DNA of 64,000 nucleotides from Alphaproteobacteria bacterium (GCA_038145705.1 JAYQQF010000011.1:43753-107752); one strand, 5' to 3'; positions 671 through 61,069 are shown, counted from the first letter of the stretch. A program made the numbers and translations. Notes: generated by a model not told the origin, from the sequence alone.

Positions 671-697
671 GGCTTCCTCCGTTCAGGCGCTTGCAGG

Positions 698-1456: not shown

Positions 1457-1469
1457 CGCGTTCTCCGCC

Positions 1470-2111: not shown

Positions 2112-2115
2112 GGCT

Positions 2116-2769: not shown

Positions 2770-2770
2770 C

Positions 2771-3439: not shown

Positions 3440-3495
3440 TTGGCAATCTCCCCCAGATCAAAAACCGATTTTGACGATACTACAGGACGGCGCGT

Positions 3496-6329: not shown

Positions 6330-6515
6330 GACTGGCCTCCCCGGGCCGGGCTTTCCCGGCCTCGTGATTATCGGTCAAGGGGCACGGCCAGAGCCGAGAC
6401 CCACGCTTTCTTGACCCTCGATTTCGAGTTCCTTAGTCTAATATTCGAAAGCGATTTCCCAAATCAAAAAACAAGCGACCGGCAACCCGGCACTTGCGTC
6501 TGCGAGGACCGCCCC

Positions 6516-7796: not shown

Positions 7797-7837
7797 GCCG
7801 CACGGCCCGGCTTCATAACGATAAGGGAGACTTCACG

Positions 7838-8959: not shown

Positions 8960-8981
8960 CAGCGGCCGCAGCCGCCGGGAT

Positions 8982-9890: not shown

Positions 9891-9995
9891 TCTCTCTTTA
9901 CCTCCCGATGAAGCAACATCACCATGTTCGACAAAATCGACAAAGCGCGATAGTGTTTTCGAAATTTAGAAACGATTTCTGCAGGGAGACGAAAA

Positions 9996-11123: not shown

Positions 11124-11135
11124 TCACGGCGCAAC

Positions 11136-14925: not shown

Positions 14926-15013
14926 CGGCGGCGGTACTCCCTGTTGGCGGCGCCAGCATAAGGGCGCGCGCCGCTGCTTGCCAGCGGGAGGGGCGCTGGA
15001 CTAGGCTGCCCCC

Positions 15014-15883: not shown

Positions 15884-15892
15884 CTTCCGGTT

Positions 15893-16669: not shown

Positions 16670-16782
16670 CGGTGTCTCTCCTCCATTTTCCGACCCGCAC
16701 GCTAGCGGCGGGGGCCGGACCTGTCCAGTGCGGCGGTTTGCCGCGAACGAAGGCTGGGATATGCTCATCAGGCAGGGAGAAA

Positions 16783-18375: not shown

Positions 18376-18415
18376 AAAACAAGAAGGGCGTCGAACACCA
18401 GAGGGGGAGCCGCTC

Positions 18416-19721: not shown

Positions 19722-20441
19722 TCAGGCCTGGGCGCGGCGCAGCACGGCGTCGCCCGGCATCTGGCCGATGGCCTTGAACGACGAAATCGAGGCGTTCTCG
19801 ACATGGGCACGGGCCGCGGCACGGGCCGCCGTTATGTCGCGCGCCTCGATGGCGGCAACCAGCGCATCCACCTCGCCGATGCTTTCGGCCTTGCGCTCGG
19901 CGCGCGAGATGGACGCCGCGCGCATCGGACTGGTGCGCAGATGCAGCGTCATCAGCAGGTCGAAGGCCACCGGGTTGCGCGCACCTTCGCATAAGGCGTC
20001 GTAATAGATTTTCTTGGCGTCCAGGATAGCTTCCAGGTCGGCCAGCTGATAGGCGCGCTTGAGACCTTCGCCCGCTTCGCGGAATGCCGCGCAATCGGGC
20101 GCGCTCGCGCGTTCGATGAATTGTTCCGCGATCAGGGCTTCGAGCTCGGCGCGGATGCGATAGATGTTTTCGGCATCTTCCGTCGAAATCGGCGTGACCA
20201 TCAGCCCGCGTACGGTGGAATTGGAAATGACCCGCAGCGCCTCCAGCTCGCGCAGGGCTTCGCGCAGGCAGGTGCGGCTAACGCCGAGCTGCGCGCAGAG
20301 GTCCTTCTCGATCAGGCGTTCGCCCGGCTTGAGCACGCCCATTTCGATGGCCCGGCGCAGCGCCGTGATGATCTTCTGGCGCAGCGGCGCGAATTCGGTC
20401 TTGAGCGGCATCAGCTTGGTCGCAGCTTCGGATACGCTCAT
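19722..20441 (-). CDS. GntR-family transcriptional regulator (FadR/FCD subfamily)
   Basis: 239 aa; N-terminal wHTH (LKPGERLIEKDLCAQLGVSRTCLREALRELE) plus C-terminal FCD-like helical domain. Confidence 0.8.
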   Translation of the reverse strand: MSVSEAATKLMPLKTEFAPLRQKIITALRRAIEMGVLKPGERLIEKDLCAQLGVSRTCLREALRELEALRVISNSTVRGLMVTPISTEDAENIYRIRAELEALIAEQFIERASAPDCAAFREAGEGLKRAYQLADLEAILDAKKIYYDALCEGARNPVAFDLLMTLHLRTSPMRAASISRAERKAESIGEVDALVAAIEARDITAARAAARAHVENASISSFKAIGQMPGDAVLRRAQA

Positions 20442-20517
20442 GGTACGGGCCTTTCTTCGGGGGTTGAACGAAACGGCGTCCCGCCCCGGGGACGGGACGC
20501 CGCAATCACCTTGAAGA

Positions 20518-21621
20518 TCAGGACTTCTTGTCCTTGTTCTTCGACTTCTTCTTCACGTCACAGTTGACCTTGCAGTTCTTCTTGTAGCCCTTCATCGCTT
20601 CCTGGGCCTGTGCCACCAGATGCTTCGGCGTCCCCAGGGCTTCGCGGGTCATGGCATCGAGCGCCTCGCCCGTTTCGGGATCGATGTTGGCCTTCTGCTT
20701 CCCGGCATCGGCAAGGAAGCCCGCGTCCTTCGTCATCCTGGCGAAGCCGTCACGCAGGGCCTTCAGGCGGTCCGCGGGCAGGCCTTCCGGCGCGTTGAAT
20801 GCACGGCCGATGAAACCGCCGATCGACAGGAACTTCAGGATCTGCTGCTTTTCCTTGTCCTTGGTCAGTTCATGCATGAGGGGAAGGTTGGGCAGTTCCT
20901 TCTCGCGCTTGAGGCCGACCTGGACGATCGGGATCAGCTTGCCGGTCTTGAAGTCGTCGAAGTAACGGATGCGCCAGCTGGCCCAGGCGCTCGACTGTGC
21001 CTGGATTTCGCCACGGATCATCGCCAGCGTCTGCGCCGCCGAACCGCGGTAGCCGCAGATCATCTGGAAGTTGGCACCGAGCAGCGACATCATCGCGCGC
21101 GGCATGATGTAGCTCTGCGACCCCGCGCCTGTACAGCCGACAATGACCTTGGTTTTCTGTGCATCGGCGAAGGTCTTGACGTTGGCGTCACTGCGTACCG
21201 CAAAGACCGGATTGATCGGCGTAAAGCTGCCGATATAAGGCAGCTTGGCCGCGTCGAACTTGGCCTTCGACGGGAACAGGAGCTGGCTGACGGCCAGCGT
21301 GTCGGCGAACATGCCGATCATCGAGCCGTCCTTCGGCGCCACGTTGGCGAAGTAGTTGGCGGCCACCAGGCTGCCGGCGCCCGCCATGTTCTGAACGATG
21401 ACGTTGGGCTTGCCGGGGATGAACTTGCCGTAATGCCGTGCGGCGAGCTGGGCGTAGGCGGTGTAGGAACCCGCCGGCGGATAGCCGACGAGGATCTTCA
21501 TCGTCTTGCCCTTGTAGAAATCGGCAACCGAATCGGCCTTGGCCGGGGTGCCGGAAGCCGCGAAGGCCAGCGCCGCGACGGCGCCGATGGCGGCAGGTAC
21601 GAGATTTTTCAGACCACGCAT
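20518..21621 (-). CDS. TctC/Bug-family tripartite tricarboxylate transporter substrate-binding protein with Lys-rich, Cys-containing C-terminal tail
   Basis: ORF 20518..21921 trimmed to MRGLKNLVPAAIGAVAALAFAASGTPAKA (signal peptide, RBS GGGAG); TctC signature GKPNVIVQNMAGAGS; unusual tail ...KGYKKNCKVNCDVKKKSKNKDKKS. Confidence 0.75.
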   Translation of the reverse strand: MRGLKNLVPAAIGAVAALAFAASGTPAKADSVADFYKGKTMKILVGYPPAGSYTAYAQLAARHYGKFIPGKPNVIVQNMAGAGSLVAANYFANVAPKDGSMIGMFADTLAVSQLLFPSKAKFDAAKLPYIGSFTPINPVFAVRSDANVKTFADAQKTKVIVGCTGAGSQSYIMPRAMMSLLGANFQMICGYRGSAAQTLAMIRGEIQAQSSAWASWRIRYFDDFKTGKLIPIVQVGLKREKELPNLPLMHELTKDKEKQQILKFLSIGGFIGRAFNAPEGLPADRLKALRDGFARMTKDAGFLADAGKQKANIDPETGEALDAMTREALGTPKHLVAQAQEAMKGYKKNCKVNCDVKKKSKNKDKKS

Positions 21622-21755
21622 GATCAATCTCCCATTCTGTCCTGTTGATGTCCTCGATTCTGGCGCCCCTTGGTGGGGCTGTTGTATCGGGACCGGGTTG
21701 TTTGGGCCGGCAATGCCGGTACGCGTGCTGGTTACTCCTCCTCTGCTAGTGAATG

Positions 21756-23462
21756 TTACTTCGGATCGCCCTCCACCTCGCGACAGGGGGTCTCCGGAAT
21801 GATTCCCGAAGCGCGGCGCTGGGCCGTGCGACGGCCATTCTCGGCATAGTCGCCCTTGACCGCACGTTCGGCAGCGCGGTCCCAGGCCTCGAACCAGTCG
21901 CCGAGATCGTAGCCGTGCCACGGCGACTGGGCCTTGAGCTGCGGCAGGCCGAGCTTCTCCCAGAGCCGCTTCGCGCCTTCCATGTATTCCTTCTTCGGCA
22001 GCGCGAGCGGCGGCATGTCGCCCTTGAGGGTGGCGTCGATCAGCAGCGTGCCGTCCTCGTTGACGTTGCCCGATTTCGGCCCGTGGCCGCGCGGGCGATG
22101 GTGCAGGACCTCGATGTCGGTCAGCACGTTGGCGCGATAGGCCATCGCCCAGAACACCGCATCGCCGTCATCGGGATCGATGTCGTCGTTGACCGCGATC
22201 ACGTACTTGCCGCAGTCGGCGCGTAGTACGGCGGCGCCGTAAAGCGCGCGCCAGACCTCGGTGCGCGAGGTGGCTCGGTCCATGACCAGGAAGATCACCT
22301 TGCGGATATTGGTGAGCGGCTCGTGCAGCGCCACGCGCTTGACGCCGCGCAGGCCAAGCTGGTCGCGCAGGTGGGCCAGGAACATCGGCTCGTAGGCGAC
22401 GCGCTTGATGACGCTCGATTCGCTCGGCGTGACCTGCGAGATGATCGAGGCCAGCACCGGCTTCTTCTTCATGGTGATCGCCGTCACCTCGAAGATCATG
22501 TTGAAATCCTCGAGCGCGATATGGCCGTGGGATTCGCCGAAGGGGGCTTCCGGTTCAAGATAGGTGGTATCTACCTTGCCCTCGATCACCAGTTCGGCTT
22601 CCGCCGGCACCATCAGGTCGTTGGTCTTGCACTTGACCATGTTGATGGGCGCACCCGCGATGCCGCCGGCCACGTCGGCCTCGTCGCGGTGGGTGCCGAG
22701 CTTCTGCGGGCCGAGATAGGCAACAATGGGCGGCGCGCCGACGACGACGGCACACGGCATCGTCTTGGCGCCCTTCTTCTGGTACTTGAGCCAGTGCAGG
22801 TAGCCGCCGGCACCGCCTTCGCGGCTCGCCATGCGCACGGCGAGGCGGTTCGTCGCCTTGAGCCCGGCGCGATAAGTGCCCATGTTCTGCACGCCGGTTT
22901 CGGGATCGACGGTGACGACATTGGTCGCCGTGAAATAGGGTGCCGCGTCGAAACCAGGTGTGGAGATCGGCACCGGCAGGGCGTCGAGGCCCTTGTTGTC
23001 GCCGAGCAGGTCCTTGCCGGTCCACACCACTTCCTGGCAGGGCGCCGTCTTGACCACCTTGGGCGGGATCGGCTTCGCCATGCCGCGTTCCCAGCGCGCA
23101 CCGATCTCTTCAAGGGGCGCGTTCATGCCGATGGCATAGATATCCTGGTTGGCGGCCAGCGCGCCGACCACCACGGGCATGTCGAACTTGCGCCCACGCG
23201 CGTCGGTGACGTTGGTAAACAGGAAGGCCTTGCGCTCGCCCTCCTTGAGCCCGCCGCGGAACTGCCAGCGCACCAGCGGGTGCAACTCGGTGTCCTTGTT
23301 GACGGGCTCATCGATGGTGACAAGAAGCCCGGCCGCCTCGAGTGCCGCGAGGTGCTCCTGCAAATCGCGGTAGCCGCGCTTGGGCAGGGCGGGAATGCGG
23401 CCCTTGCCCGCCTTTGCGGACTTCGTCTTCTTGGTCTTGTCGAGCGCGGCTTTCTTCGCCAT
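21756..23462 (-). CDS. UbiD-family (prFMN-dependent) decarboxylase with Lys-rich N-terminal extension
   Basis: ORF 21756..23588 trimmed to MAKKAALDKTKKTKSAKAGKGRIPALPKRGYRDLQEHLAALEAAG...; UbiD core about 530 aa; no UbiX-like gene in window. Confidence 0.75.
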   Translation of the reverse strand: MAKKAALDKTKKTKSAKAGKGRIPALPKRGYRDLQEHLAALEAAGLLVTIDEPVNKDTELHPLVRWQFRGGLKEGERKAFLFTNVTDARGRKFDMPVVVGALAANQDIYAIGMNAPLEEIGARWERGMAKPIPPKVVKTAPCQEVVWTGKDLLGDNKGLDALPVPISTPGFDAAPYFTATNVVTVDPETGVQNMGTYRAGLKATNRLAVRMASREGGAGGYLHWLKYQKKGAKTMPCAVVVGAPPIVAYLGPQKLGTHRDEADVAGGIAGAPINMVKCKTNDLMVPAEAELVIEGKVDTTYLEPEAPFGESHGHIALEDFNMIFEVTAITMKKKPVLASIISQVTPSESSVIKRVAYEPMFLAHLRDQLGLRGVKRVALHEPLTNIRKVIFLVMDRATSRTEVWRALYGAAVLRADCGKYVIAVNDDIDPDDGDAVFWAMAYRANVLTDIEVLHHRPRGHGPKSGNVNEDGTLLIDATLKGDMPPLALPKKEYMEGAKRLWEKLGLPQLKAQSPWHGYDLGDWFEAWDRAAERAVKGDYAENGRRTAQRRASGIIPETPCREVEGDPK

Positions 23463-23521
23463 TTCGCTGGTGCTCCGGAACAAAAATGGGGATGGCCCCG
23501 GCAAGCCGGGGCTATCACATC

Positions 23522-25288
23522 TTACAGGTATTCCACCATGGGGCGGCGCACATATTCGGGCGCGACGCGGACGTCGAGCACGAAGCACTTACCCGCCTTC
23601 ACGGCAGCAAGCGCGCGCTTCAGGCCATCGGCAACGGCGGCGATGTCGTCGATGCGCTCACCTTCCCATCCTTGCGCGCGGGCGATGCCGACGAGATCGG
23701 CGTCCGGGCCCTCCATGCGCTGGCCGATCGGCGCGTTTTCTTCCGGCCGGCCGCGATGATGCGCGATGTGCTTCTGGTGTTCTTCGTCGTTGTAGTAGGA
23801 ACGGTTGTTGGCGACGACCAGCAGCATCGGGATCTTCTGGTTGGCCGCCGTCCACAGGGCGTTGACCCCCATCATGAAATCGCCGTCGCCCAGCACCGCG
23901 ACCGGGATGCGGCCGGGCGCCGTGTCGCGCAGCGCAAGCGCCGCGCCGACCGCCATGCCCGGGCCGGAGCCAACGCCGCCGCCGCCGTTCGAGCCGAGGA
24001 AATCGAGCGGGCCTTCGATGAAGTTGCCGTTGGGCGGCCAGCCCAGCGAACGCGACATGATGCTGATCGGCTCACCCTGGGTCACGGCCGCGAACACGCG
24101 GGCAAGGTCGTTGATGTTGACCGGGCCCGACTTGGCATCGGGTTCGGGAACCTCGGGCAGCGGACGCGCGGCTGGCTTCGGCTTCTTCGCCACGTTGGCG
24201 CGCGCGAGGCCTTCGAGCAGGCAGACGACCGCCGTTTCCGGCACCGTCGCCATCCACACATCGACGGCGGGCATGATCTCGTAATCCATGCTCCAGCCGT
24301 TGTGGATACGATAGTCGTTGCTGACGTTGATAACGACGGGGCCCTTGCCGGAGCCGGGCGGGAAGGCCTGCTGCACGGTACCGGCGGGATCGACCCAGTC
24401 GAGGCTGAGCACGACGTCGGCCTGTTTCACCAGTTCGACCAGCGACGGGCGCAGCTTCCAGCCGGTTTCACCGGCGTAAAGCGGATGGGAGGTCGGGAAG
24501 CTCGCCGCATCCTTGAGGCTGGTGAGAACCCGCGCCCCCAGCCATTCAGCCAGTTCCACGCGCTTGTCCCAGCCATCCTGGGAGCGCGAAACGCGGCCCG
24601 ACAGGATCAGCGGGTTCTTGGCCTTGGCGAGCGCGGCGACGGCCTGTTCGATGGCGCTGCGCGGCGGCTCGTTGTCGGCGGCGGGCTGGTAGCGCGAGAC
24701 GTCCTCGAACTTCGGCCACTCGTCCAGCTCCATTTCCTGGATCGCGGCGTCGAGGTTGATGTAGCAGGGGCCCGCGGGGCGCGCGCGCGCGATGGTGAAG
24801 GCGCGGCGGATCGATTCGACGGCAGCCGCAGGCGAGGCCGGCTGGTCGTCCCACTTCGTGTAGCCGCGCACCAGCGCGCCCTGGTCGGCGCAGGTGTGGA
24901 TCCAGTCGATCCACGGACGGCGCTTCATGGCGTCGACCGGGCCCGTGGCGCCCAGCAGCACCACCGGCATGCGGTTGCACCAGGCGTTGAAGACGGCCAT
25001 GCTGGCATGCATCAGCCCGACGTTGGAATGGACGATGGCGGCAAGCGGCGTGCCCGTGACCGTCGCCCAGCCGTGAGCCATGGCGACGGCGTGTTCTTCA
25101 TGCATGCAGACGATCATCTGCGGCGTCTTGTTGCCGAGAAAGTTAACGAGGCTGTCGTGCAGGCCACGGTAGCTGGCGCCGGGGTTGAGGCAGACGTAGG
25201 GCACATTTTGTTCCCGCAGCGCCTGGGCAATGACGTCGGACCCCCAAATCTTGTTGGCGTTCTTGGGGTCAGGACCGTGATCGGGCAT
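23522..25288 (-). CDS. thiamine diphosphate-dependent enzyme (acetolactate synthase/benzoylformate decarboxylase superfamily), paralog 1
   Basis: 588 aa; N-terminal Pyr domain (NPGASYRGLHDSL...MHEEHAVAMAHG), central domain, C-terminal PP domain with GDGDFMMG...NN TPP-binding motif. Confidence 0.8.
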   Translation of the reverse strand: MPDHGPDPKNANKIWGSDVIAQALREQNVPYVCLNPGASYRGLHDSLVNFLGNKTPQMIVCMHEEHAVAMAHGWATVTGTPLAAIVHSNVGLMHASMAVFNAWCNRMPVVLLGATGPVDAMKRRPWIDWIHTCADQGALVRGYTKWDDQPASPAAAVESIRRAFTIARARPAGPCYINLDAAIQEMELDEWPKFEDVSRYQPAADNEPPRSAIEQAVAALAKAKNPLILSGRVSRSQDGWDKRVELAEWLGARVLTSLKDAASFPTSHPLYAGETGWKLRPSLVELVKQADVVLSLDWVDPAGTVQQAFPPGSGKGPVVINVSNDYRIHNGWSMDYEIMPAVDVWMATVPETAVVCLLEGLARANVAKKPKPAARPLPEVPEPDAKSGPVNINDLARVFAAVTQGEPISIMSRSLGWPPNGNFIEGPLDFLGSNGGGGVGSGPGMAVGAALALRDTAPGRIPVAVLGDGDFMMGVNALWTAANQKIPMLLVVANNRSYYNDEEHQKHIAHHRGRPEENAPIGQRMEGPDADLVGIARAQGWEGERIDDIAAVADGLKRALAAVKAGKCFVLDVRVAPEYVRRPMVEYL

Positions 25289-25404
25289 GATGTCTCCGTT
25301 CGGATGGGGTGTTGTATATGACGATCATAATGTATTACTAAAACCAGTCCACCTTGTGGACCCCCACAGTCACGATCACCGCAAATTTTTCAGATAGGCC
25401 GAAG

Positions 25405-27819
25405 ATGCCCAAGGACGCCCATCACGCGAGCCTCGAAACCGAACTCGACACTCCCGACGCGGAAGGCTTCCGCGCCATCGGCCAGCCGATCCGCCGCAAG
25501 GAAGACGAGCGGCTGCTGACCGGCAAGGGGCGCTTCTCTGACGATTTTGCCCTGCCCGGACAGACCTACGCGGTGATGGCGCGCTCGCCCTACCCGCACG
25601 CGCGCATCAAGGAAATCCGCAAGGAGAGCGTCGCCAGCATGCCTGGCGTACTCGGCGTGTTCACGGGCAAGGATGTGCTGGCGGAAAACATCGGCCCCAT
25701 CCCGCACGACCCGGTGCCTTCGACCAAGTACGACATGAAGCTGACGGCGCCCGACGGCACCCGCAACGTCTTCATCGGCCCCCATTACCTGCTGCCCGCC
25801 GACCGCGCCCGACATGTCGGCGAGGCCGTCGCCATGGTCGTCGCCGAAACCCGCGACCAGGCGCAGGATGCGGCGGAAGCCCTCGATATCGTTTACGAGG
25901 AACTGCCTTTCGTTGCGGGGACCGCGGCGGCGGCGGAACCCGGCGCGCCCGCCGTCTGGGACGAGGTTCCCGACAACGTCTTCATCGACACCTGGTTCGG
26001 CGACAAGGACGCTACCGACCGCGCCTTCACCCGCGCCGATCACGTGTTTTCGATGGATTTCCATATTGACCGCGTCACCGGCGTACCGATGGAACCGCGC
26101 GCGGCGCTGGCCGCGCTCGACGAGCGGACCGGCAACTTCACCCTGTGGGCGGGATCAGGCGGCGCCGTGCGCCAGAAGCGCGAGCTCGCAAGCATCCTCG
26201 GCATCCCGCAGGACAAGCTGCGCGTGCTGTCCTTCGATGTCGGCGGCAACTTCGGCACGCGCAACCGCGTCTATGTCGAGTTCGGCCTCGTGCTGTGGGC
26301 GGCGCGCACGCTCAAGCGCCCGGTCAAGTTCACCGCGACGCGGTCCGAAGCCTTCCTGTCGGACTACCAGGGCCGCGACCTTGTCACCAAGGTGTCGCTG
26401 GCGATGGATAAGTCGGGGAAGTTCCTCGCCATGCGGGCCGACAACATTTCCAATGTCGGCGCGCGCTGCGTGTCGCTGTCGCCGCTCGGCAAGGGTTCAG
26501 CGCTGATTACCGGCTCCTACGACATTCCGGTGGCGAGCCTTCATGCCCGCGCCGTGTTCACCAACACCATGTGCACCCAGGCCTACCGTTCATCGGGACG
26601 GCCGGAGGTGAACTTCGCGCTCGAACGCCTGATCGATACGGCGGCGCGCGAGCTGGGCTTCGACCGCATCGATCTGCGCCGCAGGAATTTCGTGCCGCCC
26701 GCGAAGATGCCCTACATGAACCCGGTCGGCGCCCAGTACGACAGCGGCACCTATGAAGCCAACCTCGATCTTTCGATGAAGATCGCGGACTGGGACGGCT
26801 TCGCCGCGCGGCGCAAGGAAAGCGAAGCGCGCGGGCGCCTGCGCGGCCTCGGCCTCGGCCATTACGTCGAATCCTCGATCGGCTCGCCGAAGGAACGCGC
26901 CGACATCTCGGTGCACGGGGAAGGCACGGTGACCGTGGTCATCGGCACCCAGCCCTCGGGCCAGGGCCACGAAACCAGCTTTTCGCAGGTAGTGGCGGAC
27001 CGCCTCGGCGTGCCGTTCTCCGCCGTGCGCATCGTCATCGGCGACACCGACGTGGTGAAGGCGGGCGGCGGCAGCCATTCGGGCCGCTCCATGCGCCATG
27101 CCGGCACGGTGATGAGCATGGCGTCGAACGACCTGATCGCCAAGGGCAAGCGCATCGCGGCGGTGCTGTGGAACGTGCCCGCCGACACGGTCATGTGGGA
27201 AGACCATCGCTTCACCCTGCCCGGCACCAACCATGCGCTCAACGTGTTCGACCTTGCGCGCGAGGCGGCCAAGGCGTCGCTGCCCGACGACCTTGCCGAC
27301 GGGCTTGCGGTCAGCCGCGAAAACGAAATGCACGACCCGGTATTCCCCAACGGCTGCGCCATCTGCGAGGTCGAGGTTGACCCCGAGACCGGCCGCGTCG
27401 ACCTGGTGCGCTATACCTCCATCGACGACGTCGGGCGCTGCATCAATCCGCTGATCGTCCACGGCCAGACCCATGGCGGCGTGGCGCAAGGCGTCGGCCA
27501 GGCGATGTGGGAACAGTGCGTCATCGATCCCGATTCGGGCCAGCCGATGATCGGCACCTTCATGGACTACGGCATGCCGCGGTCCGACAACATCCCCTCG
27601 ATCACCTCCGAAATCGTCGAAGTGCTGTCGCCGACCAACCCGCTCGGCATCAAGGCAGGCGGCGAAGGCGGCACGACGCCCGCCCTTTCGGTCGTCACCA
27701 ACGCCGTCATCGACGCGCTGTGGCCGCTCGGCGTGCGCGACATCAAGATGCCGCTGACCCCCATTACCGTATGGCGCGCCATTCAGGCCGCGAAGAAGAA
27801 AGGGAATATCGGAAAATGA
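25405..27819 (+). CDS. xanthine dehydrogenase/CoxL-family molybdopterin-binding large subunit (molybdenum hydroxylase)
   Basis: ORF 25354..27819 trimmed to MPKDAHHASLETELDTPDAEGFRAIGQPIRRKEDERLLTGKGRFSDD...; about 804 aa aldehyde oxidase/xanthine dehydrogenase a/b hammerhead + MoCo-binding domains; no FeS small or FAD medium subunit gene adjacent. Confidence 0.8.
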   Translation: MPKDAHHASLETELDTPDAEGFRAIGQPIRRKEDERLLTGKGRFSDDFALPGQTYAVMARSPYPHARIKEIRKESVASMPGVLGVFTGKDVLAENIGPIPHDPVPSTKYDMKLTAPDGTRNVFIGPHYLLPADRARHVGEAVAMVVAETRDQAQDAAEALDIVYEELPFVAGTAAAAEPGAPAVWDEVPDNVFIDTWFGDKDATDRAFTRADHVFSMDFHIDRVTGVPMEPRAALAALDERTGNFTLWAGSGGAVRQKRELASILGIPQDKLRVLSFDVGGNFGTRNRVYVEFGLVLWAARTLKRPVKFTATRSEAFLSDYQGRDLVTKVSLAMDKSGKFLAMRADNISNVGARCVSLSPLGKGSALITGSYDIPVASLHARAVFTNTMCTQAYRSSGRPEVNFALERLIDTAARELGFDRIDLRRRNFVPPAKMPYMNPVGAQYDSGTYEANLDLSMKIADWDGFAARRKESEARGRLRGLGLGHYVESSIGSPKERADISVHGEGTVTVVIGTQPSGQGHETSFSQVVADRLGVPFSAVRIVIGDTDVVKAGGGSHSGRSMRHAGTVMSMASNDLIAKGKRIAAVLWNVPADTVMWEDHRFTLPGTNHALNVFDLAREAAKASLPDDLADGLAVSRENEMHDPVFPNGCAICEVEVDPETGRVDLVRYTSIDDVGRCINPLIVHGQTHGGVAQGVGQAMWEQCVIDPDSGQPMIGTFMDYGMPRSDNIPSITSEIVEVLSPTNPLGIKAGGEGGTTPALSVVTNAVIDALWPLGVRDIKMPLTPITVWRAIQAAKKKGNIGK

Positions 27820-28739
27820 CCGATCTTAAACTCATCTGCTTTCCCGGCGCGCCCAACCTGCCGATCTTCGCCGCCATCGAAAAGGGCTGGTTTGCCGCGA
27901 ACGGCGTCAACGTCAAGCTGACGACGACGCCTTCTTCCGCCTTTCAGGCCGAGAACCTCGCCAACGGCACGTTTGACATCGCCGGCACCGCTTTCGACAA
28001 CGTCGTCGCCTACCGCGAAAAGCAGGGCGCGGTGATGATCGACCCGGTTCCCGATTTCTTCGCCTTCATGGGCGCGACGCAGATTGAACTGGCGCTGGTC
28101 GCGGCCAAGGACGTGAAGTCCGTTGCCGATCTCAAGGGCCGCTCTGTGGCGCTCGATGCGCTGGCGACGGGCTTCGCCTTCGTGCTTTACGAAATGCTGG
28201 AACGTGCCGGCCTCAAGCAGGCGGACGTCGAAATGGCCGCCGTCGGCGCCACGCCCCTGCGCTGGGAATCGGTGCGCGCGGGCACCCATGCGGCGACGCT
28301 GACCATCGAGCCGTTCACCTCGATCGCCCGCGCCCAGGGCTTCAACGTGGTCGAAACCAGCACCAACATGTTCGCCGCCTACCAGGGTGGCTCTTTCGCC
28401 GCCCGCTATTCCTGGGCATCGGCCAACGCCGACGCGGTCAAGGGCTTCATCCGGGGCTACCTCAAGGGCCTCGACTGGACGCTCGATCCCGCCAACAAGG
28501 ACGAGGCGGTGAAGCTGCTTCTCGCCAACATGGACGGCATCAAGCCGGAAGTCGCGCCCAAGGTCGTCGCCAACCTCGTCAACCCGCGCTCGGGCCTGAC
28601 GCCCAAGGCGGCCTTCCTGCCCGACGGCGTGGCGACGGTGCTGGAACTGCGCCGGCGCTACGGCGGCGGCAAGGCCAATGCCGACCCGGCCCGCTACATC
28701 GACACCAGCTTCTACGACGACGCCGTCAAGGGCGTCTGA
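27816..28739 (+). CDS. NMT1/THI5-like (SsuA/TauA-like PBP fold) protein without signal peptide
   Basis: MTDLKLICFPGAPNLPIFAAIEKGWFAANGVNVKL...; ATG overlaps Mo-hydroxylase stop (ATGA), so translationally coupled; no export signal, so likely cytoplasmic. Confidence 0.7.
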   Translation: MTDLKLICFPGAPNLPIFAAIEKGWFAANGVNVKLTTTPSSAFQAENLANGTFDIAGTAFDNVVAYREKQGAVMIDPVPDFFAFMGATQIELALVAAKDVKSVADLKGRSVALDALATGFAFVLYEMLERAGLKQADVEMAAVGATPLRWESVRAGTHAATLTIEPFTSIARAQGFNVVETSTNMFAAYQGGSFAARYSWASANADAVKGFIRGYLKGLDWTLDPANKDEAVKLLLANMDGIKPEVAPKVVANLVNPRSGLTPKAAFLPDGVATVLELRRRYGGGKANADPARYIDTSFYDDAVKGV

Positions 28740-28760
28740 CACGCATCAGGGGGAAAGATC

Positions 28761-29234
28761 ATGGAAATTCGCCGCGTCGTTATCGGCCACGACAAGGACG
28801 GCAAGGCCGTCGTCGAACAGGACGCCCTGATGTCTAACGTCAAGGTCATGCCGTCGGGCCATTCGGGCTGCGTCATGTGGGCGACCGACGGTTCGCCCGC
28901 CGATCCCGACGTGGCCGAGGACCCCGCCGCCAAGGACCGCCCCCTGCCGCCGCCCGAAAACGGCACCGTGCTCCGCATCCTCCAGCTGGTGCCGCACAAG
29001 CCCGCCTTCATGCATCGCACCGACACGGTCGATTACTGCATCGTCCTTGAGGGCGAATGCTTCATGAAGATGGACGACGACAAGGAAGTGAAGCTGAAGC
29101 AGGGCGACATCCTGATCCAGAAGGGCACCTGGCACGGCTGGGAAAACCGCTCGGACGCGACCTGCCGGCTGGCCTTCGTGCTGATCGACGGCAAGGCGCC
29201 GGCCAAGACCCTGCACCCGACGCTCGGGCACTAG
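28761..29234 (+). CDS. cupin domain protein
   Basis: 157 aa; GTWHGWEN cupin motif. Confidence 0.7.
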   Translation: MEIRRVVIGHDKDGKAVVEQDALMSNVKVMPSGHSGCVMWATDGSPADPDVAEDPAAKDRPLPPPENGTVLRILQLVPHKPAFMHRTDTVDYCIVLEGECFMKMDDDKEVKLKQGDILIQKGTWHGWENRSDATCRLAFVLIDGKAPAKTLHPTLGH

Positions 29235-29238: not shown

Positions 29239-30042
29239 TTATTTCACGAGCTTGCGAAGGCTGGCGACCTCGGCGCTGGCGGCCTGCTGCAGCAGCACGC
29301 CGTCGACGCGGCCCATGAGGAAACGTCCGCCCATTTCCACCACCTGGTTCAGAACCGGGCCTTCCTTGATGCCGCCGACGCCGAGCGCCTTGCCGTGCCT
29401 GCGGCAGGCCTCCGCCGTGCGGCGATAGGCGTCAAGCACCTTCGGATCGTCGAGCTTGCCGGGAATGCCCATCTCGGCACAAAGATCGTTGGTGCCGATC
29501 AGGAGCATGTCGACGCCCTCGACGGCGGCGATGGCATCGGCATTGTCGATCGCTTCGGGGCTTTCCAGCATGGTCACGAGAACCGTGTTGGCGTTGATCA
29601 GTCGGTAGGATTCCTCGATACCGACGGACAGCCCAGCGAGCGGCCCGTAGCCCGCGAGCGAGCGGTTGCCGAGCGGCGGATAGCGGCAGGCCGCGACGCA
29701 GGCGCGCGCCGTTTCGGCATCGTCCACATGGGGGACGATGACGCCATGACAGCCGCCATCGAGCACGCGGCTGATCCAGTCGTGATCGTGGGACGGAACG
29801 CGGGCCATCGGCACCACGCCCGCAAGGGCCGCCGCCTGGGCGATCTGGGCGACATGATCGAGGGAGAGCGTCGAATGTTCGAGGTCGCAATAGAGCGCGT
29901 CGTAGCCCGCCAGCCGGACGATCTGGGCGATTTCGACCGTGCGCGAGAACCGCACCGTGGCGCAGAGCGTCAGCGCGCCGGCGGCAAGCCGCGCCTTCAT
30001 CTGCGCGCCGAGAAGTCCCGGAATGTCCTTTGCGTCCGCCAT
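29239..30042 (-). CDS. HpcH/HpaI-family 2-keto-3-deoxy-acid (pyruvate) aldolase
   Basis: 267 aa; HpcH/HpaI aldolase/citrate-lyase fold hallmarks (LGNRSL, IGTNDL). Confidence 0.75.
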   Translation of the reverse strand: MADAKDIPGLLGAQMKARLAAGALTLCATVRFSRTVEIAQIVRLAGYDALYCDLEHSTLSLDHVAQIAQAAALAGVVPMARVPSHDHDWISRVLDGGCHGVIVPHVDDAETARACVAACRYPPLGNRSLAGYGPLAGLSVGIEESYRLINANTVLVTMLESPEAIDNADAIAAVEGVDMLLIGTNDLCAEMGIPGKLDDPKVLDAYRRTAEACRRHGKALGVGGIKEGPVLNQVVEMGGRFLMGRVDGVLLQQAASAEVASLRKLVK

Positions 30043-30151: not shown

Positions 30152-31159
30152 CTACTTGATCGCCGCGGCCGCCTTCGGAATCAGGTTCTTGGGCGTGGCG
30201 TAGAGCTTTTCGACCATCTTGGCGACATCCTCGCCGCGCAGGGGATCGATGATGCCGCGCTTGGTCTTGATCGATTCGTCGATCAGGGCCTTGTCGTGGA
30301 TCGTCTTCCAGAACGACTCGCGCAGCACCGCAACCTTGTCCATCGGCACCTTGCTGGACACGATGAAGGGCCGGAAGATCAGGTTGTGGGTGGTCACCAG
30401 ATCGATGATCTGCTTCTGCTCGTCGTTGGCGAACTCGCTGATGTGCGGGATGCCCTTGAGCTCCGGCACGTTGACCTTGGAGATGCGGATGAAGATGTTG
30501 GTCTTTTTCTCCGCAAGCCAGTGCGGCGGCACGCTTTCCCACGTGCCGCAGTCGCCGTCCAGCTCGCCGCGCTCGACCGCGAGGCGCTGCTCGGTGGCGC
30601 CCGGATAGCCGACGATCTGCTTGATCTTGGCGCCGAACACGTTCTTCAGGATCGCTGCATCGAGGTAGGTCGAAGCGGAATTGCCCGTGTGGCCGGTGGA
30701 GAACTGGCTCTTCTTCAGGAGATCCTGGAAGGTCTTCACTCCCGTCGTGTGCCAGGCATGGCAGACGCGGGCATCGGCGGTGGCGCTGCCGATGAAGTGG
30801 ACGTCCTTGGAAAAGTCCGCCTTGACCTTGTTGGGCGTCAGCAGCGAGCCCAGCACCAGGCCGGGATTGAACAGCACGATGTAGGTGCCGTCGGTCGGCG
30901 CAGCCTTGAGGGACTGCACCGCCTTGAACGAACCGGCGCCCGGCATGTTGCTGACGACGATGCTGGGCTTGCCCGGGATATGGGCGCCCAGGTGACGGCC
31001 GACCATGCGGCCGAAGGCATCGAAGCCCGCACCCGCCGACGAACCGACGACGATGCGCATGTTCTTGCCGCCCGAGAAGCTCTCGGCGGCGAAGGACGAG
31101 GTCGCGGCAACCACGCCCGCGACCAACGCCAGACCCGGGAAAACGCCAGCAATCTTCAT
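30152..31159 (-). CDS. TctC/Bug-family substrate-binding protein, paralog 2
   Basis: ORF 30152..31240 trimmed to MKIAGVFPGLALVAGVVAATSSFAAES (signal); FSGGKNMRIVVGSSAGAGFDAFGR; GKPSIVVSNMPGAGS. Confidence 0.8.
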   Translation of the reverse strand: MKIAGVFPGLALVAGVVAATSSFAAESFSGGKNMRIVVGSSAGAGFDAFGRMVGRHLGAHIPGKPSIVVSNMPGAGSFKAVQSLKAAPTDGTYIVLFNPGLVLGSLLTPNKVKADFSKDVHFIGSATADARVCHAWHTTGVKTFQDLLKKSQFSTGHTGNSASTYLDAAILKNVFGAKIKQIVGYPGATEQRLAVERGELDGDCGTWESVPPHWLAEKKTNIFIRISKVNVPELKGIPHISEFANDEQKQIIDLVTTHNLIFRPFIVSSKVPMDKVAVLRESFWKTIHDKALIDESIKTKRGIIDPLRGEDVAKMVEKLYATPKNLIPKAAAAIK

Positions 31160-31178
31160 GGGAAAGGTCTCCTGTAGG

Positions 31179-32186: not shown

Positions 32187-32411
32187 GTGACACTCCGGAT
32201 TTTATTATGGGAGGGTGGCCGTTGACGGCCGACGTATTATTGTATTATCGGCAATATGCTAGCATCCCCCCGAGCCGGTCAACTCGAATTGACAGTGGTG
32301 AAAACGGGGGTTTTCCGGCGCTTTGGAACATGCCGAGACCGCAAAAAAAGATGTTTCCGGGCAGAAATTCCCGCAATCGACGGAATTCCCGGGAGCAGCA
32401 TAGGGGGGACC

Positions 32412-33227
32412 ATGACGGCGGCCATATCGGCAGACCGTATCCGTATCGGCGGGCGCGCGCTCAACTACCGCATCGAGGGCGCTGGTCCCGGTGCACCCTG
32501 GCTCACCTTCAGCAACTCCCATGCCACCGATCTTCACCTTTGGGATGAGCAAGCCCCCCTGTTTGCCCGGAACTTCCGCATCCTGCGCTACGACACGCGC
32601 GGCCACGGTTTGAGCGCGGCGGGCTTGGGTCCCTGCGACATGGCCGCCCTTGCCGGCGACGTCGTCGCGCTGTGGGATGTGCTCGCCATCGAGCGCTCGC
32701 ACGTCATCGGGCTGTCGCTCGGCGGCACGACCGGCCTCGAGCTTGCCGCCCGCCATCCCGGCCGCGTCCTGTCGCTGATCGCCTGCGACTGCCGCCACAC
32801 ATCGGGGGCCGAATTCGCCGCGGGCTGGCTGCCGCGCATCGCGCTCGCGCGCGACAAGGGCATGGAAGCACTTGTGTCCTCGACCATCGAACGCTGGTTC
32901 ACCGAAAGCTACCGCGCCAAGAATCCGCCCGACCTCGATCGCGTGCGAGACATGATCCGCGGCACGTCGGTGGCAGGCTATATCGCCTGCGCCGAGGCGC
33001 TGATGGGCATCGACAGCATCGAACGGCTGGGCAGCATCCGCTGTCCGGTGCTTGCCATCGGCGGCGCCTTCGATCCGCCGGCGCCGCCCGCCCTGATGGC
33101 CGACATGGCCGCGCGCATCAAGGGTGCCCGCCACGAAATCATCGCCGATGCCAGCCACATGGCCGTCATCGAACAACCCTCTTCCTTCAACCGTGCCGCC
33201 GCCGCCTTTCTGGCGTCGGTTGCATGA
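32412..33227 (+). CDS. alpha/beta-fold hydrolase (3-oxoadipate enol-lactonase/PcaD-like)
   Basis: ORF 32256..33227 trimmed to ATG 32412 (SD GGGGGGA): MTAAISADRIRIGGRALNYRIEGAG...; GLSLGG nucleophile elbow. Confidence 0.75.
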   Translation: MTAAISADRIRIGGRALNYRIEGAGPGAPWLTFSNSHATDLHLWDEQAPLFARNFRILRYDTRGHGLSAAGLGPCDMAALAGDVVALWDVLAIERSHVIGLSLGGTTGLELAARHPGRVLSLIACDCRHTSGAEFAAGWLPRIALARDKGMEALVSSTIERWFTESYRAKNPPDLDRVRDMIRGTSVAGYIACAEALMGIDSIERLGSIRCPVLAIGGAFDPPAPPALMADMAARIKGARHEIIADASHMAVIEQPSSFNRAAAAFLASVA

Positions 33228-33255
33228 TCTTCCCTTCCTGACAGGAGACAACAGC

Positions 33256-61014: not shown

Positions 61015-61069
61015 CCGCGCTTCCGGCGGCTTGGCCGCCTTCCTGTATTTGCAAGAGCGAGAGAGCGTC

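What the first reader, a model, noticed from the sequence alone, without database searches (positions are those of the whole stretch)
25405..29234. Lone molybdenum-hydroxylase large subunit translationally coupled to a cytoplasmic NMT1-like protein and a cupin
An ~804-aa CoxL/XdhA-family MoCo subunit has no adjacent [2Fe-2S] small subunit or FAD subunit gene. In the established architecture of this family these are needed to carry electrons away from Mo. Its stop overlaps the start (ATGA) of a signal-less SsuA/NMT1-fold protein, followed by a small cupin. Either the partner subunits are encoded elsewhere (unusual for CoxSML-type operons), or this is a variant hydroxylase system in which the PBP-fold protein presents substrate or the cupin acts downstream.
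Basis: partly seen in the sequence, partly recalled or inferred. Interest (0 to 1): 0.6.

Follow-up and report, generated by a model that had tools for sequence, protein, structure and literature searches.

The report
Mo hydroxylase subunit with PBP-like partner
An intact molybdenum-hydroxylase large subunit really does sit here without its iron-sulfur and flavin partner genes, but related bacteria keep those partner genes inside the same gene cluster, so they are probably encoded elsewhere in this genome; the more unusual feature is a cytoplasmic 'transporter-like' binding protein that is almost always encoded next to this enzyme.

Summary
An 804-aa CoxL/Xdh-family large subunit (25405-27819) overlaps by ATGA a signal-less 307-aa NMT1/SsuA-fold protein (27816-28739), followed by a 157-aa cupin (28761-29234). 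No [2Fe-2S], FAD, CoxG, XdhC or UbiX gene occurs anywhere in the 64 kb.

The trio belongs to a widely conserved, uncharacterised cluster: TPP enzyme, UbiD decarboxylase, TctC receptor and GntR regulator lie divergently, and an HpcH aldolase is convergent.

- The PBP-like gene sits directly beside this large-subunit clade in 42 of 45 metagenomic loci with at least 1 kb of upstream sequence.
- All 11 well-flanked genome loci carrying the pair also carry UbiD.
- Homologous clusters on Rhizobiaceae plasmids read MoL-NMT1-CoxG-CoxS-CoxM, plus UbiX, XdhC and a second large subunit.
- The two nearest fully flanked relatives (77% identity) carry coxS just before GntR. The window has only a 77-bp gap with a terminator-like hairpin there.

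The best reading is therefore a canonical multi-subunit hydroxylase whose electron-transfer subunits are supplied in trans, as the missing UbiX must be. The PBP-like protein has no redox-cofactor motif, so it does not replace them. Its own role (ligand hand-off, enzyme or chaperone) and the substrate remain unknown. Verdict: a new variant of a known kind, of moderate interest.

The parts
25405..27819 (+). Molybdenum-hydroxylase large (Moco-binding) subunit, 804 aa, CoxL/Qor/Kdh-like. The active-site loop is AYRSSGR, so the Cu-binding Cys of CO dehydrogenase is absent.
   Evidence: Pfam finds three domains. Best PDB match is 8uem CoxL at 1e-127, followed by 7dqx, 1n5w and 1t3q. No NCBIfam equivalog cut-off is reached. 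dN/dS is 0.05 against L078.
27816..28739 (+). Cytoplasmic NMT1/SsuA-fold (class II periplasmic-binding-protein fold) protein, 307 aa. Its start overlaps the large-subunit stop as ATGA.
   Evidence: Pfam NMT1, NMT1_2 and Phosphonate-bd. AF2 model has pLDDT 91.5. Foldseek hits include 3qsl, ThiY, TauA, SsuA, Thi5 and CmpC regulatory domains. It lies adjacent to MoL in 42 of 45 loci.
28761..29234 (+). Small single-domain cupin, 157 aa.
   Evidence: Pfam Cupin_2. PDB match 3es1 at 5e-30. The same gene lies directly downstream of NMT1 in L002, L006, L078, L179 and about 10 metagenome loci.
29239..30042 (-). HpcH/HpaI-type class II aldolase, convergent with the cupin.
   Evidence: Pfam HpcH_HpaI at 1.6e-34. 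Syntenic in L002, L006, L078, L103, L137 and L139.
23522..25288 (-). Thiamine-diphosphate enzyme (PRK08327 / benzoylformate-decarboxylase-like). It is the first gene of the divergent operon.
   Evidence: Pfam TPP_enzyme N, M and C domains and NCBIfam. Orthologues of 59-60% identity lie in the Rhizobiaceae clusters and in L179.
21756..23588 (-). UbiD-family (prFMN-dependent) decarboxylase. The true start is probably downstream of the ORF start.
   Evidence: Pfam UbiD N, core and C domains. Best PDB match is HmfF (6h6v/6h6x) at 6e-33. UbiD is present in all 11 well-flanked MoL-NMT1 genome loci.
20518..21921 (-). TctC/Bug-type tripartite tricarboxylate transporter solute receptor. The ORF is over-extended at its 5' end and overlaps UbiD.
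   Evidence: Pfam TctC. Syntenic with L002, L005 and L086.
19722..20441 (-). GntR/FCD-family regulator.
   Evidence: Pfam GntR and FCD. Orthologues of 51-69% identity occur in related clusters.
25289..25404 (.). Divergent promoter region. It holds the conserved motif TTGTATATGACGATCATAATGTATTACTAAAA, a candidate GntR/FadR operator.
   Evidence: The same motif occurs in L078 and L179, and partly in L002. One sigma-70-like site lies on the minus strand.
20442..20517 (-). 77-bp TctC-GntR spacer with a GC-rich hairpin followed by a T-run. This is the position where the closest relatives carry coxS.
   Evidence: Sequence read directly. L002 reads UbiD-TctC-CoxS-GntR and L179 reads UbiD-AldolaseII-CoxS-GntR.
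32256..33227 (+). Alpha/beta-hydrolase. It belongs to a gene family that recurs in related clusters and is possibly part of the pathway.
   Evidence: Pfam Abhydrolase_1. Cluster C5 occurs in 13 loci including L013, L047, L080, L081 and L084.

Best explanation
The locus is one arm of a conserved, still uncharacterised catabolic gene cluster. The substrate is most likely a (hetero)aromatic carboxylic acid taken up through a TctC-type receptor.

The cluster has four groups of components:
- a CoxL-family molybdenum hydroxylase, which inserts water-derived oxygen or oxidises an aldehyde;
- a prFMN-dependent UbiD decarboxylase;
- a ThDP enzyme;
- in this lineage, a cupin and an HpcH aldolase.
A GntR repressor probably controls the two divergent operons.

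The large subunit is a normal member of the heterotrimeric CoxLSM/QorLMS type. Its [2Fe-2S] subunit, and probably the FAD subunit, are needed but encoded outside this 64-kb window. They may be a dedicated pair or borrowed from a paralogous enzyme. The same applies to UbiX, CoxG and XdhC.

The translationally coupled cytoplasmic PBP-fold protein is a conserved non-redox accessory of the large subunit. Most likely it binds the anionic substrate or an intermediate and passes it to or from the Mo site.

Shown:
- gene content;
- conservation of the cluster;
- intactness of the large subunit and purifying selection on it;
- presence of S, M, CoxG and XdhC in homologous clusters.

Inferred:
- supply of the partner subunits in trans;
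- the substrate class;
- the role of the PBP-like protein.
For: Complete systems exist in homologous clusters.
- N. petrolearium OS53 (annotated), S. fredii NGR234 pNGR234b and S. meliloti LMB1 pA read TPP<TctC<, DUF2390>, UbiX<GntR<MoL2<UbiD<, then >MoL-NMT1-CoxG-CoxS-CoxM, with XdhC nearby in the two Sinorhizobium plasmids.
- L084 and L047 show the same with CoxG and XdhC.
- L018, L019, L056 and L062, plus seven well-flanked metagenome loci, carry CoxS and usually CoxM.

The nearest relatives point the same way.
- L002 and L179 have 77% MoL identity and are the nearest relatives with complete flanks. L002 is the sister of the window/L078 pair in the NJ tree; L179 was fetched after the tree was built and is not in it. 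Both carry CoxS immediately upstream of GntR.
- The window has only a 77-bp spacer at that position.

There is an internal control and a precedent for sharing.
- UbiX is absent from the window but in-cluster in relatives. From general knowledge of UbiD/UbiX, it is required by UbiD-family enzymes.
- Rhizobiaceae clusters hold two large subunits but only one S/M set, so subunit sharing already occurs.
- CoxS is generic. The top 120 database hits are all at least 73% identical to the L002 CoxS.

Other support.
- The PBP-like protein has a single Cys and no Fe-S or flavin motif.
- MoL keeps all its Moco motifs and the catalytic Glu.
- Purifying selection is strong: dN/dS 0.04-0.05.
- The lumazine pathway is a documented analogue that combines a Mo hydroxylase with UbiD and UbiX. 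That paper also notes clusters carrying only the MPT subunit (PMC12391406).
Against: - The rest of this genome could not be searched, so no partner gene has actually been found.
- About half to two-thirds of well-flanked MoL-NMT1 loci lack coxS nearby: 5 of 11 genome loci within 6 kb, and 14 of 21 metagenome loci within their 4-8 kb flanks.
- In the wider clade, 37 of 46 loci lack it. That is unusual if a dedicated partner is obligatory.
- L002 and L179 show CoxS but no CoxM within 10 kb.
- There is no direct evidence that the PBP-like protein binds the large subunit. No fusion proteins were found. A mirror-tree comparison gave no MoL-NMT1 signal beyond co-inheritance: r = 0.72, against 0.75 for MoL-UbiD.
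- The substrate is unknown.
Confidence: 0.62

Rival explanations
1. Self-sufficient variant. In this lineage the large subunit, perhaps as a complex with the PBP-fold protein, works without [2Fe-2S] or FAD subunits. Electrons would pass directly from Mo to O2, a quinone or another soluble acceptor, or the reaction would be redox-neutral (hydration or hydroxyl transfer).
For: - No S or M gene lies within 64 kb.
- The coxS slot seen in the closest relatives is empty here, yet MoL and NMT1 remain under strong purifying selection, with dN/dS about 0.05.
- Most loci of the clade are S-less. These include lone MoL genes held stably in a conserved housekeeping context in L003, L007, L010 and L034.
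Against: - To my knowledge, no xanthine-oxidase-family enzyme is known to work without an Fe-S electron path.
- The PBP-like protein has no redox-cofactor motif.
- Orthologous clusters do encode CoxS, CoxM, CoxG and XdhC in one operon with MoL and NMT1.
- Overall MoL identity to the window is the same whether or not coxS is adjacent: 66-67% for L018 and L084 with coxS, 68-70% for L005 and L003 without.
- UbiX is missing in the same way, which shows that gene dispersal is normal in this genome.
Confidence: 0.12
2. The PBP-fold protein is an enzyme of the pathway rather than a partner of the large subunit. It would be a non-redox isomerase, decarboxylase or hydrolase, as Thi5 is within this fold. 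On this view its adjacency to MoL reflects consecutive metabolic steps only. The S/M question is unaffected.
For: - Sequence conservation is very high for a binding protein: 65-70% identity across orders, with many invariant polar residues such as T37, T38, S41, Q44, E46, D61, N62, D114, R149, E151 and Q190.
- The fold includes a true enzyme, Thi5.
- In the lumazine pathway, a non-redox isomerase acts between the Mo hydroxylase and UbiD.
- The mirror-tree comparison shows no extra MoL-NMT1 coupling.
Against: - It lies next to MoL in either gene order (MoL>NMT1 and NMT1>MoL), often with only 0-130 bp between them. In complete operons it sits between MoL and CoxG/CoxS. That pattern is more typical of a subunit or accessory factor.
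- No catalytic motif was identified.
- The closest structures are ligand-binding proteins.
Confidence: 0.25
3. The cluster is a decaying remnant. After coxS was lost, the large subunit is non-functional or on its way to becoming a pseudogene.
For: coxS, coxM, coxG, xdhC, ubiX and the second large subunit are all missing relative to the Rhizobiaceae clusters.
Against: - All eight genes have intact reading frames.
- dN/dS is 0.04-0.05 against L078 at dS about 0.26.
- All cofactor motifs are retained.
- The same reduced architecture occurs in several independent assemblies: L001, L006, L078, L092 and L093.
Confidence: 0.03

Closest known systems
Aerobic CO dehydrogenase CoxLMS (form I; PDB 8UEM, 1N5W) and 'form II' CoxL-like enzymes
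   Same: Best sequence matches in the PDB, with E 1e-127 to 1e-105 over the full length. Same three-domain large subunit, the same Moco motifs and the same catalytic Glu. Relatives carry CoxG, CoxS and CoxM.
   Different: The active-site loop is AYRSSGR. The PDB form-I CoxL aligned has AYACSFR, and the literature form-I signature is AYRCSFR. The Cu-ligating Cys is Ser here, so this is not a CO dehydrogenase. It is not identical to the form II signature AYRGAGR either. NCBIfam CODH models are far below cut-off: 455 against 991 and 499 against 950. No S/M genes and no coxDEF-type accessory genes were seen in the window.
N-heteroaromatic hydroxylases QorLMS (quinoline 2-oxidoreductase, 1T3Q) and KdhLMS (6-hydroxypseudooxynicotine dehydrogenase, 7DQX)
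   Same: Same CoxL-like subfamily, with E 1e-101 to 1e-107. They have a catabolic role on aromatic rings and a heterotrimeric L/M/S architecture like that in the Rhizobiaceae homologues.
   Different: Only distant sequence similarity. The Pfam and PDB hits name no PBP-like partner or UbiD for these enzymes, and I know of none. Their three subunit genes are contiguous (general knowledge).
Lumazine/pterin degradation cluster I of Cupriavidus sp. LA-1 (LuDH + XC decarboxylase + UbiX; PMC12391406)
   Same: It combines a Mo hydroxylase, a UbiD-family decarboxylase, UbiX, regulators and dedicated transporters. The authors also report clusters (in Streptomyces) with only the MPT-binding subunit.
   Different: LuDH is described as a separate clade outside the COX group. 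The middle step there uses an amidohydrolase-2 isomerase plus a GTPase, neither of which is in this cluster. No PBP-like protein, ThDP enzyme, cupin or HpcH aldolase is mentioned in the sections I read.
HMF/furoate pathway (HmfABC furoyl-CoA dehydrogenase + HmfF/HmfG FDCA decarboxylase + TctC-like receptor)
   Same: The UbiD here has HmfF as its best solved relative, 6h6v at 6e-33. That pathway also pairs a Mo hydroxylase with a UbiD enzyme and a Bug/TctC receptor (established knowledge, recalled).
   Different: Similarity to HmfF is weak. No CoA ligase or hydratase is present. HmfABC subunits are contiguous.
NMT1/THI5, ThiY, SsuA/TauA and NrtA/CmpA class II binding proteins, including the cytoplasmic regulatory domains of CmpC/NrtC
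   Same: Same fold, with TM about 0.73-0.81 and Pfam NMT1. Thi5 and the CmpC/NrtC C-terminal domains show that this fold can also work inside the cell, as an enzyme or as a ligand sensor.
   Different: There is no signal peptide, and no ABC permease or ATPase genes lie beside it. It is instead obligately linked to a Mo-hydroxylase large subunit. Identity to any solved member is only 13-21%.

Membership tests
Xanthine oxidase / Mo-hydroxylase family, large (Moco) subunit | Ald_Xan_dh_C, MoCoBD_1 and MoCoBD_2 domain architecture | tested here: met
   Pfam E 2.5e-23, 1e-63 and 3e-69, all above the gathering scores.
Xanthine oxidase / Mo-hydroxylase family, large (Moco) subunit | Moco-binding motifs (GGxFG, QGHET) and the catalytic Glu near the C-terminus | tested here: met
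   The alignment to 8uem shows GGNFG, GQGHET and GGEGG, with Glu754 aligned to the CoxL Glu. These positions are invariant in 16 clade members.
Xanthine oxidase / Mo-hydroxylase family, large (Moco) subunit | Companion [2Fe-2S] (Fer2/Fer2_2) and FAD (FAD_binding_5/CO_deh_flav_C) subunits encoded with it | tested here: not met
   None in 64 kb. The feature is met in homologous clusters L018, L019, L047, L056, L084, L089, L172 and L173.
Form I Mo-Cu CO dehydrogenase (CoxL) | Active-site loop AYRCSFR with the Cu-binding Cys | tested here: not met
   The loop is AYRSSGR, with Cys replaced by Ser. NCBIfam TIGR02416 scores 455 bits against a cut-off of 991.
NCBIfam equivalogs (glyceraldehyde DH alpha, XdhA, 4-HBCR alpha, PaoC and others) | Score above the curated cut-off | tested here: not met
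   The best is glyceraldehyde dehydrogenase alpha at 534 bits against 790. All 13 hits are below their cut-offs.
ABC-transporter periplasmic substrate-binding protein (SsuA/NMT1 type) | NMT1/SsuA class II PBP fold | tested here: met
   Pfam NMT1 72.6 bits and NMT1_2 62.7 bits. Foldseek probability 1.0 to 3qsl, 3ix1, 6ssy and 2x26.
ABC-transporter periplasmic substrate-binding protein (SsuA/NMT1 type) | N-terminal signal peptide or lipobox, and adjacent permease and ATPase genes | tested here: not met
   The core beta-strand starts at residue 2. Orthologues are about 305 aa and align from residue 1-4. More distant periplasmic relatives align from residue about 25-45. The neighbours are MoL and the cupin, not ABC components.
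Thi5/NMT1 HMP-P synthase | PLP-binding Lys and catalytic His of Thi5 | not tested
   There is only fold similarity at 13-15% identity. No residue-level structural alignment was made. No invariant Lys or His was seen around positions 58-66, but equivalence of those positions is unverified.
UbiD/UbiX prFMN decarboxylase system | UbiD three-domain protein together with a UbiX flavin prenyltransferase | tested here: inconclusive
   The UbiD domains are present. UbiX is absent from the window but in-cluster in relatives. Catalytic residues were not examined.
Lumazine degradation cluster (PMC12391406) | Amidohydrolase-2 DHL isomerase (alpha/beta) plus an LA1_0143-type GTPase next to the Mo enzyme and UbiD | tested here: not met
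   No such genes lie in the cluster or in the homologous clusters examined. An unrelated Amidohydro_2 gene lies 25 kb away at 52897-53949.

The most novel reading that the evidence does not exclude
The cytoplasmic PBP-fold protein is an obligate, physically bound fourth component of a CoxL-family molybdenum hydroxylase. It would act as a soluble substrate- or intermediate-capturing subunit that gates or feeds the Mo active site. In lineages such as this one it might allow the large subunit to operate with borrowed electron-transfer subunits, or even without dedicated ones. I know of no xanthine-oxidase-family enzyme with a solute-binding-protein subunit, so this would be the first. It would also define a widespread, uncharacterised pathway (MoL-NMT1-UbiD-ThDP) in soil and aquatic Alphaproteobacteria, Burkholderiales and Gemmatimonadota.
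Probability: 0.3. Interest if true: 0.7.

Novelty: new variant of a known kind. Interest (0 to 1): 0.45.

Why it matters
Molybdenum hydroxylases are textbook three-cofactor machines. This clade matters for three reasons.

- It is abundant in public sequence data: over 7,600 database proteins at E <= 1e-50, and the loci fetched come mostly from soil, freshwater and marine metagenomes and MAGs.
- It is usually encoded without its electron-transfer subunits.
- In a large subclade it is tied to a cytoplasmic solute-binding-like protein and a prFMN decarboxylase.

Working out the substrate and the role of the PBP-like protein would assign function to a conserved cluster. That cluster is present in tractable rhizobia (S. 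fredii NGR234, S. meliloti LMB1) and in a cultured Beijerinckia. The work would also test whether Fe-S/FAD subunits are shared among paralogous Mo enzymes.

On the practical side, current annotation labels these genes 'CO dehydrogenase large subunit' and 'ABC transporter substrate-binding protein'. The evidence here contradicts both labels for this clade, and they could inflate CO-oxidiser and transporter counts in metagenomic surveys.

Tried and rejected
- Missed small ORFs for S/M next to the genes. Rejected by the six-frame motif scan, tblastn and Pfam.
- Pseudogene. Rejected by the retained motifs and dN/dS.
- Mis-called start hiding a signal peptide on the NMT1-like protein. Rejected for four reasons. 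The in-frame upstream extension lies inside the MoL coding region. Orthologues all start at the same point. Some precede MoL. The AF2 core starts at residue 2.
- Dipicolinate (dip) cluster as the identity of this GntR-controlled cluster. Rejected because DPA degradation is Moco-independent and starts with a monooxygenase.
- Lumazine cluster orthology. The defining isomerase and GTPase are absent. It is kept only as an analogue.
- Rosetta-stone fusions of the NMT1-like protein with MoL, CoxS or CoxM. None was found among the top 150 representatives. The long hits are a tandem NMT1 duplication, N-terminal extensions and one multihaem-cytochrome fusion.
- Mirror-tree co-evolution of MoL-NMT1 against MoL-UbiD. 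No discriminating signal.
- Finding this genome's own coxS through the contig-length fingerprint in the CoxS homologue list. No hit carried the 343,116-bp contig. The window's own genome record was not returned by the contig look-up.
- Literature searches for the UbiD + Mo + NMT1 combination, DUF2390/TIGR02444 and PDB 8X0U. Nothing describing this cluster was found.
- AFDB Foldseek search. The library was unavailable.
- Recollection that 4,5-dihydroxyphthalate decarboxylase has this fold. It could not be verified and was not used.

Full report
**1. Observation**

- The large subunit spans 25405-27819 on the + strand and is 804 aa. It carries the Ald_Xan_dh_C, MoCoBD_1 and MoCoBD_2 domains.
- Its TGA stop overlaps the ATG of the next gene as ATGA at 27816-27819.
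- The next gene encodes a 307-aa NMT1/SsuA-type protein, 27816-28739.
- A 157-aa Cupin_2 protein follows at 28761-29234.

The large subunit is intact.
- In the alignment to M. smegmatis CoxL (8uem, E = 1e-127) it keeps GGNFG, GQGHET and the catalytic Glu in GGEGG.
- Its active-site loop reads AYRSSGR, against AYACSFR in 8uem and the literature form-I signature AYRCSFR. It therefore lacks the Cu-binding Cys and is not a CO dehydrogenase.
- No NCBIfam equivalog cut-off is reached. The best is glyceraldehyde dehydrogenase alpha, 534 bits against 790.

The NMT1-like protein has no signal peptide.
- Its AF2 model (pLDDT 91.5) puts residues 2-8 in the first core strand.
- About 120 close homologues are roughly 304-326 aa and align from residue 1-4.
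- More distant periplasmic relatives align from about residue 25-45 of their own sequence.

**2. Absence of partner genes**

Three tests agree.
- A six-frame scan for the Fer2_2 Cys motifs found nothing in a credible ORF.
- tblastn with CoxS, CoxM and UbiX seeds taken from homologous clusters found nothing better than E = 0.3 in the 64 kb. CoxG and XdhC seeds gave nothing at E <= 1e-3.
- Pfam scans of the GC3-supported ORFs found no Fer2_2 or FAD_binding_5 domain.

The 'lone' status therefore holds for at least 25 kb on one side and 34 kb on the other.

**3. Surroundings**

A divergent operon starts 116 bp upstream of the large subunit. On the minus strand it reads:
- ThDP enzyme, 23522-25288;
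- UbiD-family decarboxylase, 21756-23588;
- TctC receptor, 20518-21921;
- after a 77-bp spacer with a terminator-like hairpin, a GntR/FCD regulator, 19722-20441.

An HpcH/HpaI aldolase (29239-30042) is convergent with the cupin. Further downstream lie two more TctC paralogues, an alpha/beta-hydrolase and a second ThDP paralogue.

The divergent intergenic region contains a 32-bp AT-rich motif with GT-N3-AC cores. The motif is conserved in L078 and L179, and partly in L002. It is a candidate operator for the GntR regulator.

**4. Comparative genomics starting from the large subunit**

The protein belongs to a very large clade. There are 7,603 database proteins at E <= 1e-50, and the top 120 are all at least 67% identical.

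I fetched 80 genome loci. I analysed them by ORF clustering, Pfam annotation of the clusters, and tblastn with seeds.

Results for the 46 loci with at least 5 kb on both sides:
- 11 have the NMT1-like gene directly adjacent.
- All 11 of those also have UbiD within 6 kb, and 6 of them have a CoxS gene within 6 kb.
- Of the 35 loci without the NMT1-like gene, only 3 have CoxS.

For this clade, then, a large subunit without neighbouring S/M genes is the rule: 37 of 46 loci. This includes cases where a lone large subunit sits in a conserved housekeeping context, between Fur/acyltransferase and MFS/MiaB, in L003, L007, L010 and L034.

**5. The reciprocal test**

I started from the NMT1-like protein and scanned metagenome contigs.
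- 42 of the 45 loci with at least 1 kb of upstream sequence have the large subunit directly adjacent, at 330 bp or less. It can lie in either gene order.
- CoxS lies within the flanks in 7 of 21 well-flanked loci.
- A cupin lies directly downstream in about 10 loci.

The NMT1-like gene thus depends on the large subunit, but not the reverse.

**6. Complete versions of the cluster**

On plasmids of Neorhizobium petrolearium OS53 (annotated record), S. fredii NGR234 and S. meliloti LMB1 the homologous cluster reads as follows:
- TPP<TctC<
- DUF2390>
- UbiX<GntR<MoL2<UbiD<
- then >MoL-NMT1-CoxG-CoxS-CoxM, with XdhC nearby in the two Sinorhizobium plasmids.

Phyllobacterium L084 and L047 show the same, including CoxG and XdhC. 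These clusters share several orthologues with the window:
- ThDP enzyme, 59-60% identity;
- UbiD, 62-63%;
- GntR, 51-55%;
- MoL, 65%;
- NMT1-like, 58-59%.

Two points follow. In complete operons the NMT1-like gene sits between the large subunit and CoxG/CoxS. And two large subunits share one S/M set.

**7. The nearest relatives**

L002 and L179 are the nearest relatives with complete flanks, at 77% MoL identity. In the NJ tree L002 is sister to the window/L078 pair. L179 was retrieved after the tree was built and was not placed in it.
- L002 has the same MoL-NMT1-cupin / HpcH arm. Its divergent operon is UbiD-TctC-CoxS-GntR.
- L179 has cupin<NMT1<MoL< and >TPP-UbiD-AldolaseII-CoxS-GntR.

In both, coxS lies immediately before GntR. 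The window has TctC, a 77-bp hairpin-containing spacer and then GntR, with no trace of coxS. Neither L002 nor L179 has a CoxM within 10 kb.

After this apparent loss the window lineage still shows dN/dS of 0.05 for MoL and 0.04 for NMT1 against L078, at dS about 0.26.

**8. Interpretation of the missing subunits**

The most economical reading is that this is a canonical Mo hydroxylase whose Fe-S subunit, and probably its FAD subunit, are provided in trans. The arguments are:
- Orthologous clusters encode them.
- UbiX is equally missing from the window. UbiD-family enzymes are generally held to need UbiX-made prFMN (general knowledge). Cluster erosion or dispersal is therefore evident in this genome.
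- Sharing of one S/M set by two large subunits already occurs in the Rhizobiaceae clusters.
- CoxS is a highly generic protein. The top 120 hits to the L002 CoxS are all at least 73% identical, and 8,000 hits score E <= 1e-20.
- The NMT1-like protein has one Cys and no Fe-S or flavin signature. It cannot replace an electron path.

I could not test the rest of the genome. The contig look-up did not return the source record. The contig-length fingerprint trick found no CoxS on the 343-kb contig among the top hits. An S/M-independent variant therefore remains a minority possibility, about 0.12. It is kept alive by the sheer frequency of S-less loci.

**9. The PBP-like protein**

Fold search places it firmly in the NMT1/SsuA class II binding-protein fold. 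The hits include:
- 3qsl and ThiY (3ix1);
- a thiamin-binding SBP (4nmy);
- TauA and SsuA;
- NrtA/CmpA and PqqT;
- the enzyme Thi5;
- the cytoplasmic regulatory domains of CmpC/NrtC.

Identity to any solved structure is 21% or less.

Within its own family it is 65-70% identical across orders. Many polar residues are invariant at positions typical of the inter-lobe cleft. This implies a specific small-ligand site.

I found no fusion proteins linking it to Mo-enzyme subunits. Mirror-tree correlations do not single out MoL-NMT1: r = 0.72, against 0.75 for MoL-UbiD and 0.65 for NMT1-UbiD.

I favour a non-redox accessory that binds substrate or an intermediate. The reasons are its tight, order-independent adjacency to the large subunit and its position inside the MoL-CoxG-CoxS-CoxM operon. 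A stand-alone enzyme (about 0.25) or a cofactor chaperone cannot be excluded.

**10. Pathway and comparison with known systems**

The substrate is unknown. Several features point to catabolism of a (hetero)aromatic carboxylate:
- TctC-type uptake, replaced in other loci by an NMT1-type ABC system or a xanthine/uracil-family permease;
- a Mo hydroxylase of the Qor/Kdh/CoxL-like group;
- a UbiD whose best solved relative is the furandicarboxylate decarboxylase HmfF;
- a benzoylformate-decarboxylase-like ThDP enzyme;
- alpha/beta-hydrolase and isochorismatase-type genes in some relatives;
- an HpcH aldolase.

The lumazine pathway of Cupriavidus LA-1 is the closest published logic. It combines a Mo hydroxylase, an isomerase, UbiD and UbiX, and the authors note MPT-subunit-only clusters (PMC12391406). 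Its defining isomerase and GTPase are absent here. The dipicolinate dip cluster is Moco-independent and was excluded. Literature searches found no description of the MoL-NMT1-UbiD cluster.

**11. Verdict**

- The second alternative survives only as the conserved, non-redox association of a PBP-fold protein with the large subunit.
- This is a new variant of a known kind: an uncharacterised but widespread Mo-hydroxylase / prFMN-decarboxylase cluster with an unusual obligate PBP-like companion.
- Interest is moderate, 0.45. It would rise to about 0.7 if the PBP-like protein proves to be a genuine subunit.

Noticed in passing
window 25311-25342 (within intergenic 25289-25404): The AT-rich motif TTGTATATGACGATCATAATGTATTACTAAAA has GT-N3-AC cores. 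It is conserved in L078 and L179 and partly in L002, and is a candidate operator of the cluster's GntR/FCD regulator.
   Followed up: partly
window about 20466-20503, minus strand: A strong GC hairpin plus T-run lies in the 77-bp TctC-GntR spacer. This is exactly where the closest relatives (L002, L179) carry coxS. It suggests a clean loss, or an ancestral absence, of the small-subunit gene.
   Followed up: partly
L003, L007, L010, L034 (around position 10000 in L003, L007 and L034; around 5000 in L010): A lone large subunit of the same clade (64-70% identity) sits in a conserved housekeeping neighbourhood: Fur, acyltransferase, MoL, MFS, MiaB, PhoH, YbeY. No S, M, UbiD or NMT1 gene is nearby.
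   Followed up: no
L089, L172, L173 (5200-15000): Rhizobiaceae plasmid clusters encode two large-subunit paralogues (about 40% identical) but a single CoxG-CoxS-CoxM set. This implies that the electron-transfer subunits are shared.
   Followed up: partly
L091 (Y. pestis CO92 pMT1, 5911-6933) and L090 (A. xylosoxidans pA81, 7917-8909): NMT1-like homologues 40-42% identical occur without any Mo enzyme. One stands alone near repA on 63 Yersinia plasmids. The other lies ahead of an aromatic-degradation operon (VOC, FAH and NAD(P) oxidoreductase genes).
   Followed up: no
P0484 (494 aa): A multihaem cytochrome c (c7/c3-type) is fused to an NMT1-like domain that is 34% identical to the query.
   Followed up: no
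L005 13366-14915 (Gemmatimonas sp.): MoL-NMT1 is followed directly by a sulfite-oxidase-family Mo enzyme (Oxidored_molyb + Mo-co_dimer) and a 94-aa ORF. No CoxS lies within 10 kb.
   Followed up: no
window 30152-35049: Two further TctC paralogues, an alpha/beta-hydrolase and a second ThDP enzyme (50% identical to the first) follow the aldolase. The same block is syntenic in L006 and L078.
   Followed up: partly
window 21756-21921: The mechanical TctC ORF (467 aa) overlaps the 3' end of UbiD by 165 bp, and the TctC domain starts at residue 173. The real start is probably well downstream. The UbiD ORF (610 aa) is likewise longer than its homologues, which are about 545-575 aa.
   Followed up: no
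window 1-19700 and 36000-56100: The whole region is a catabolic island. It holds an RraA-like pair, two ABC systems, a LigB dioxygenase, TauD-family dioxygenases, a class II aldolase, a sulfatase and a LigXa-like Rieske oxygenase. It also holds a GMC oxidoreductase, hydantoinase A/B, a bicupin and an amidohydrolase. The housekeeping genes rplU-rpmA-obg lie at 61031-62958.
   Followed up: no
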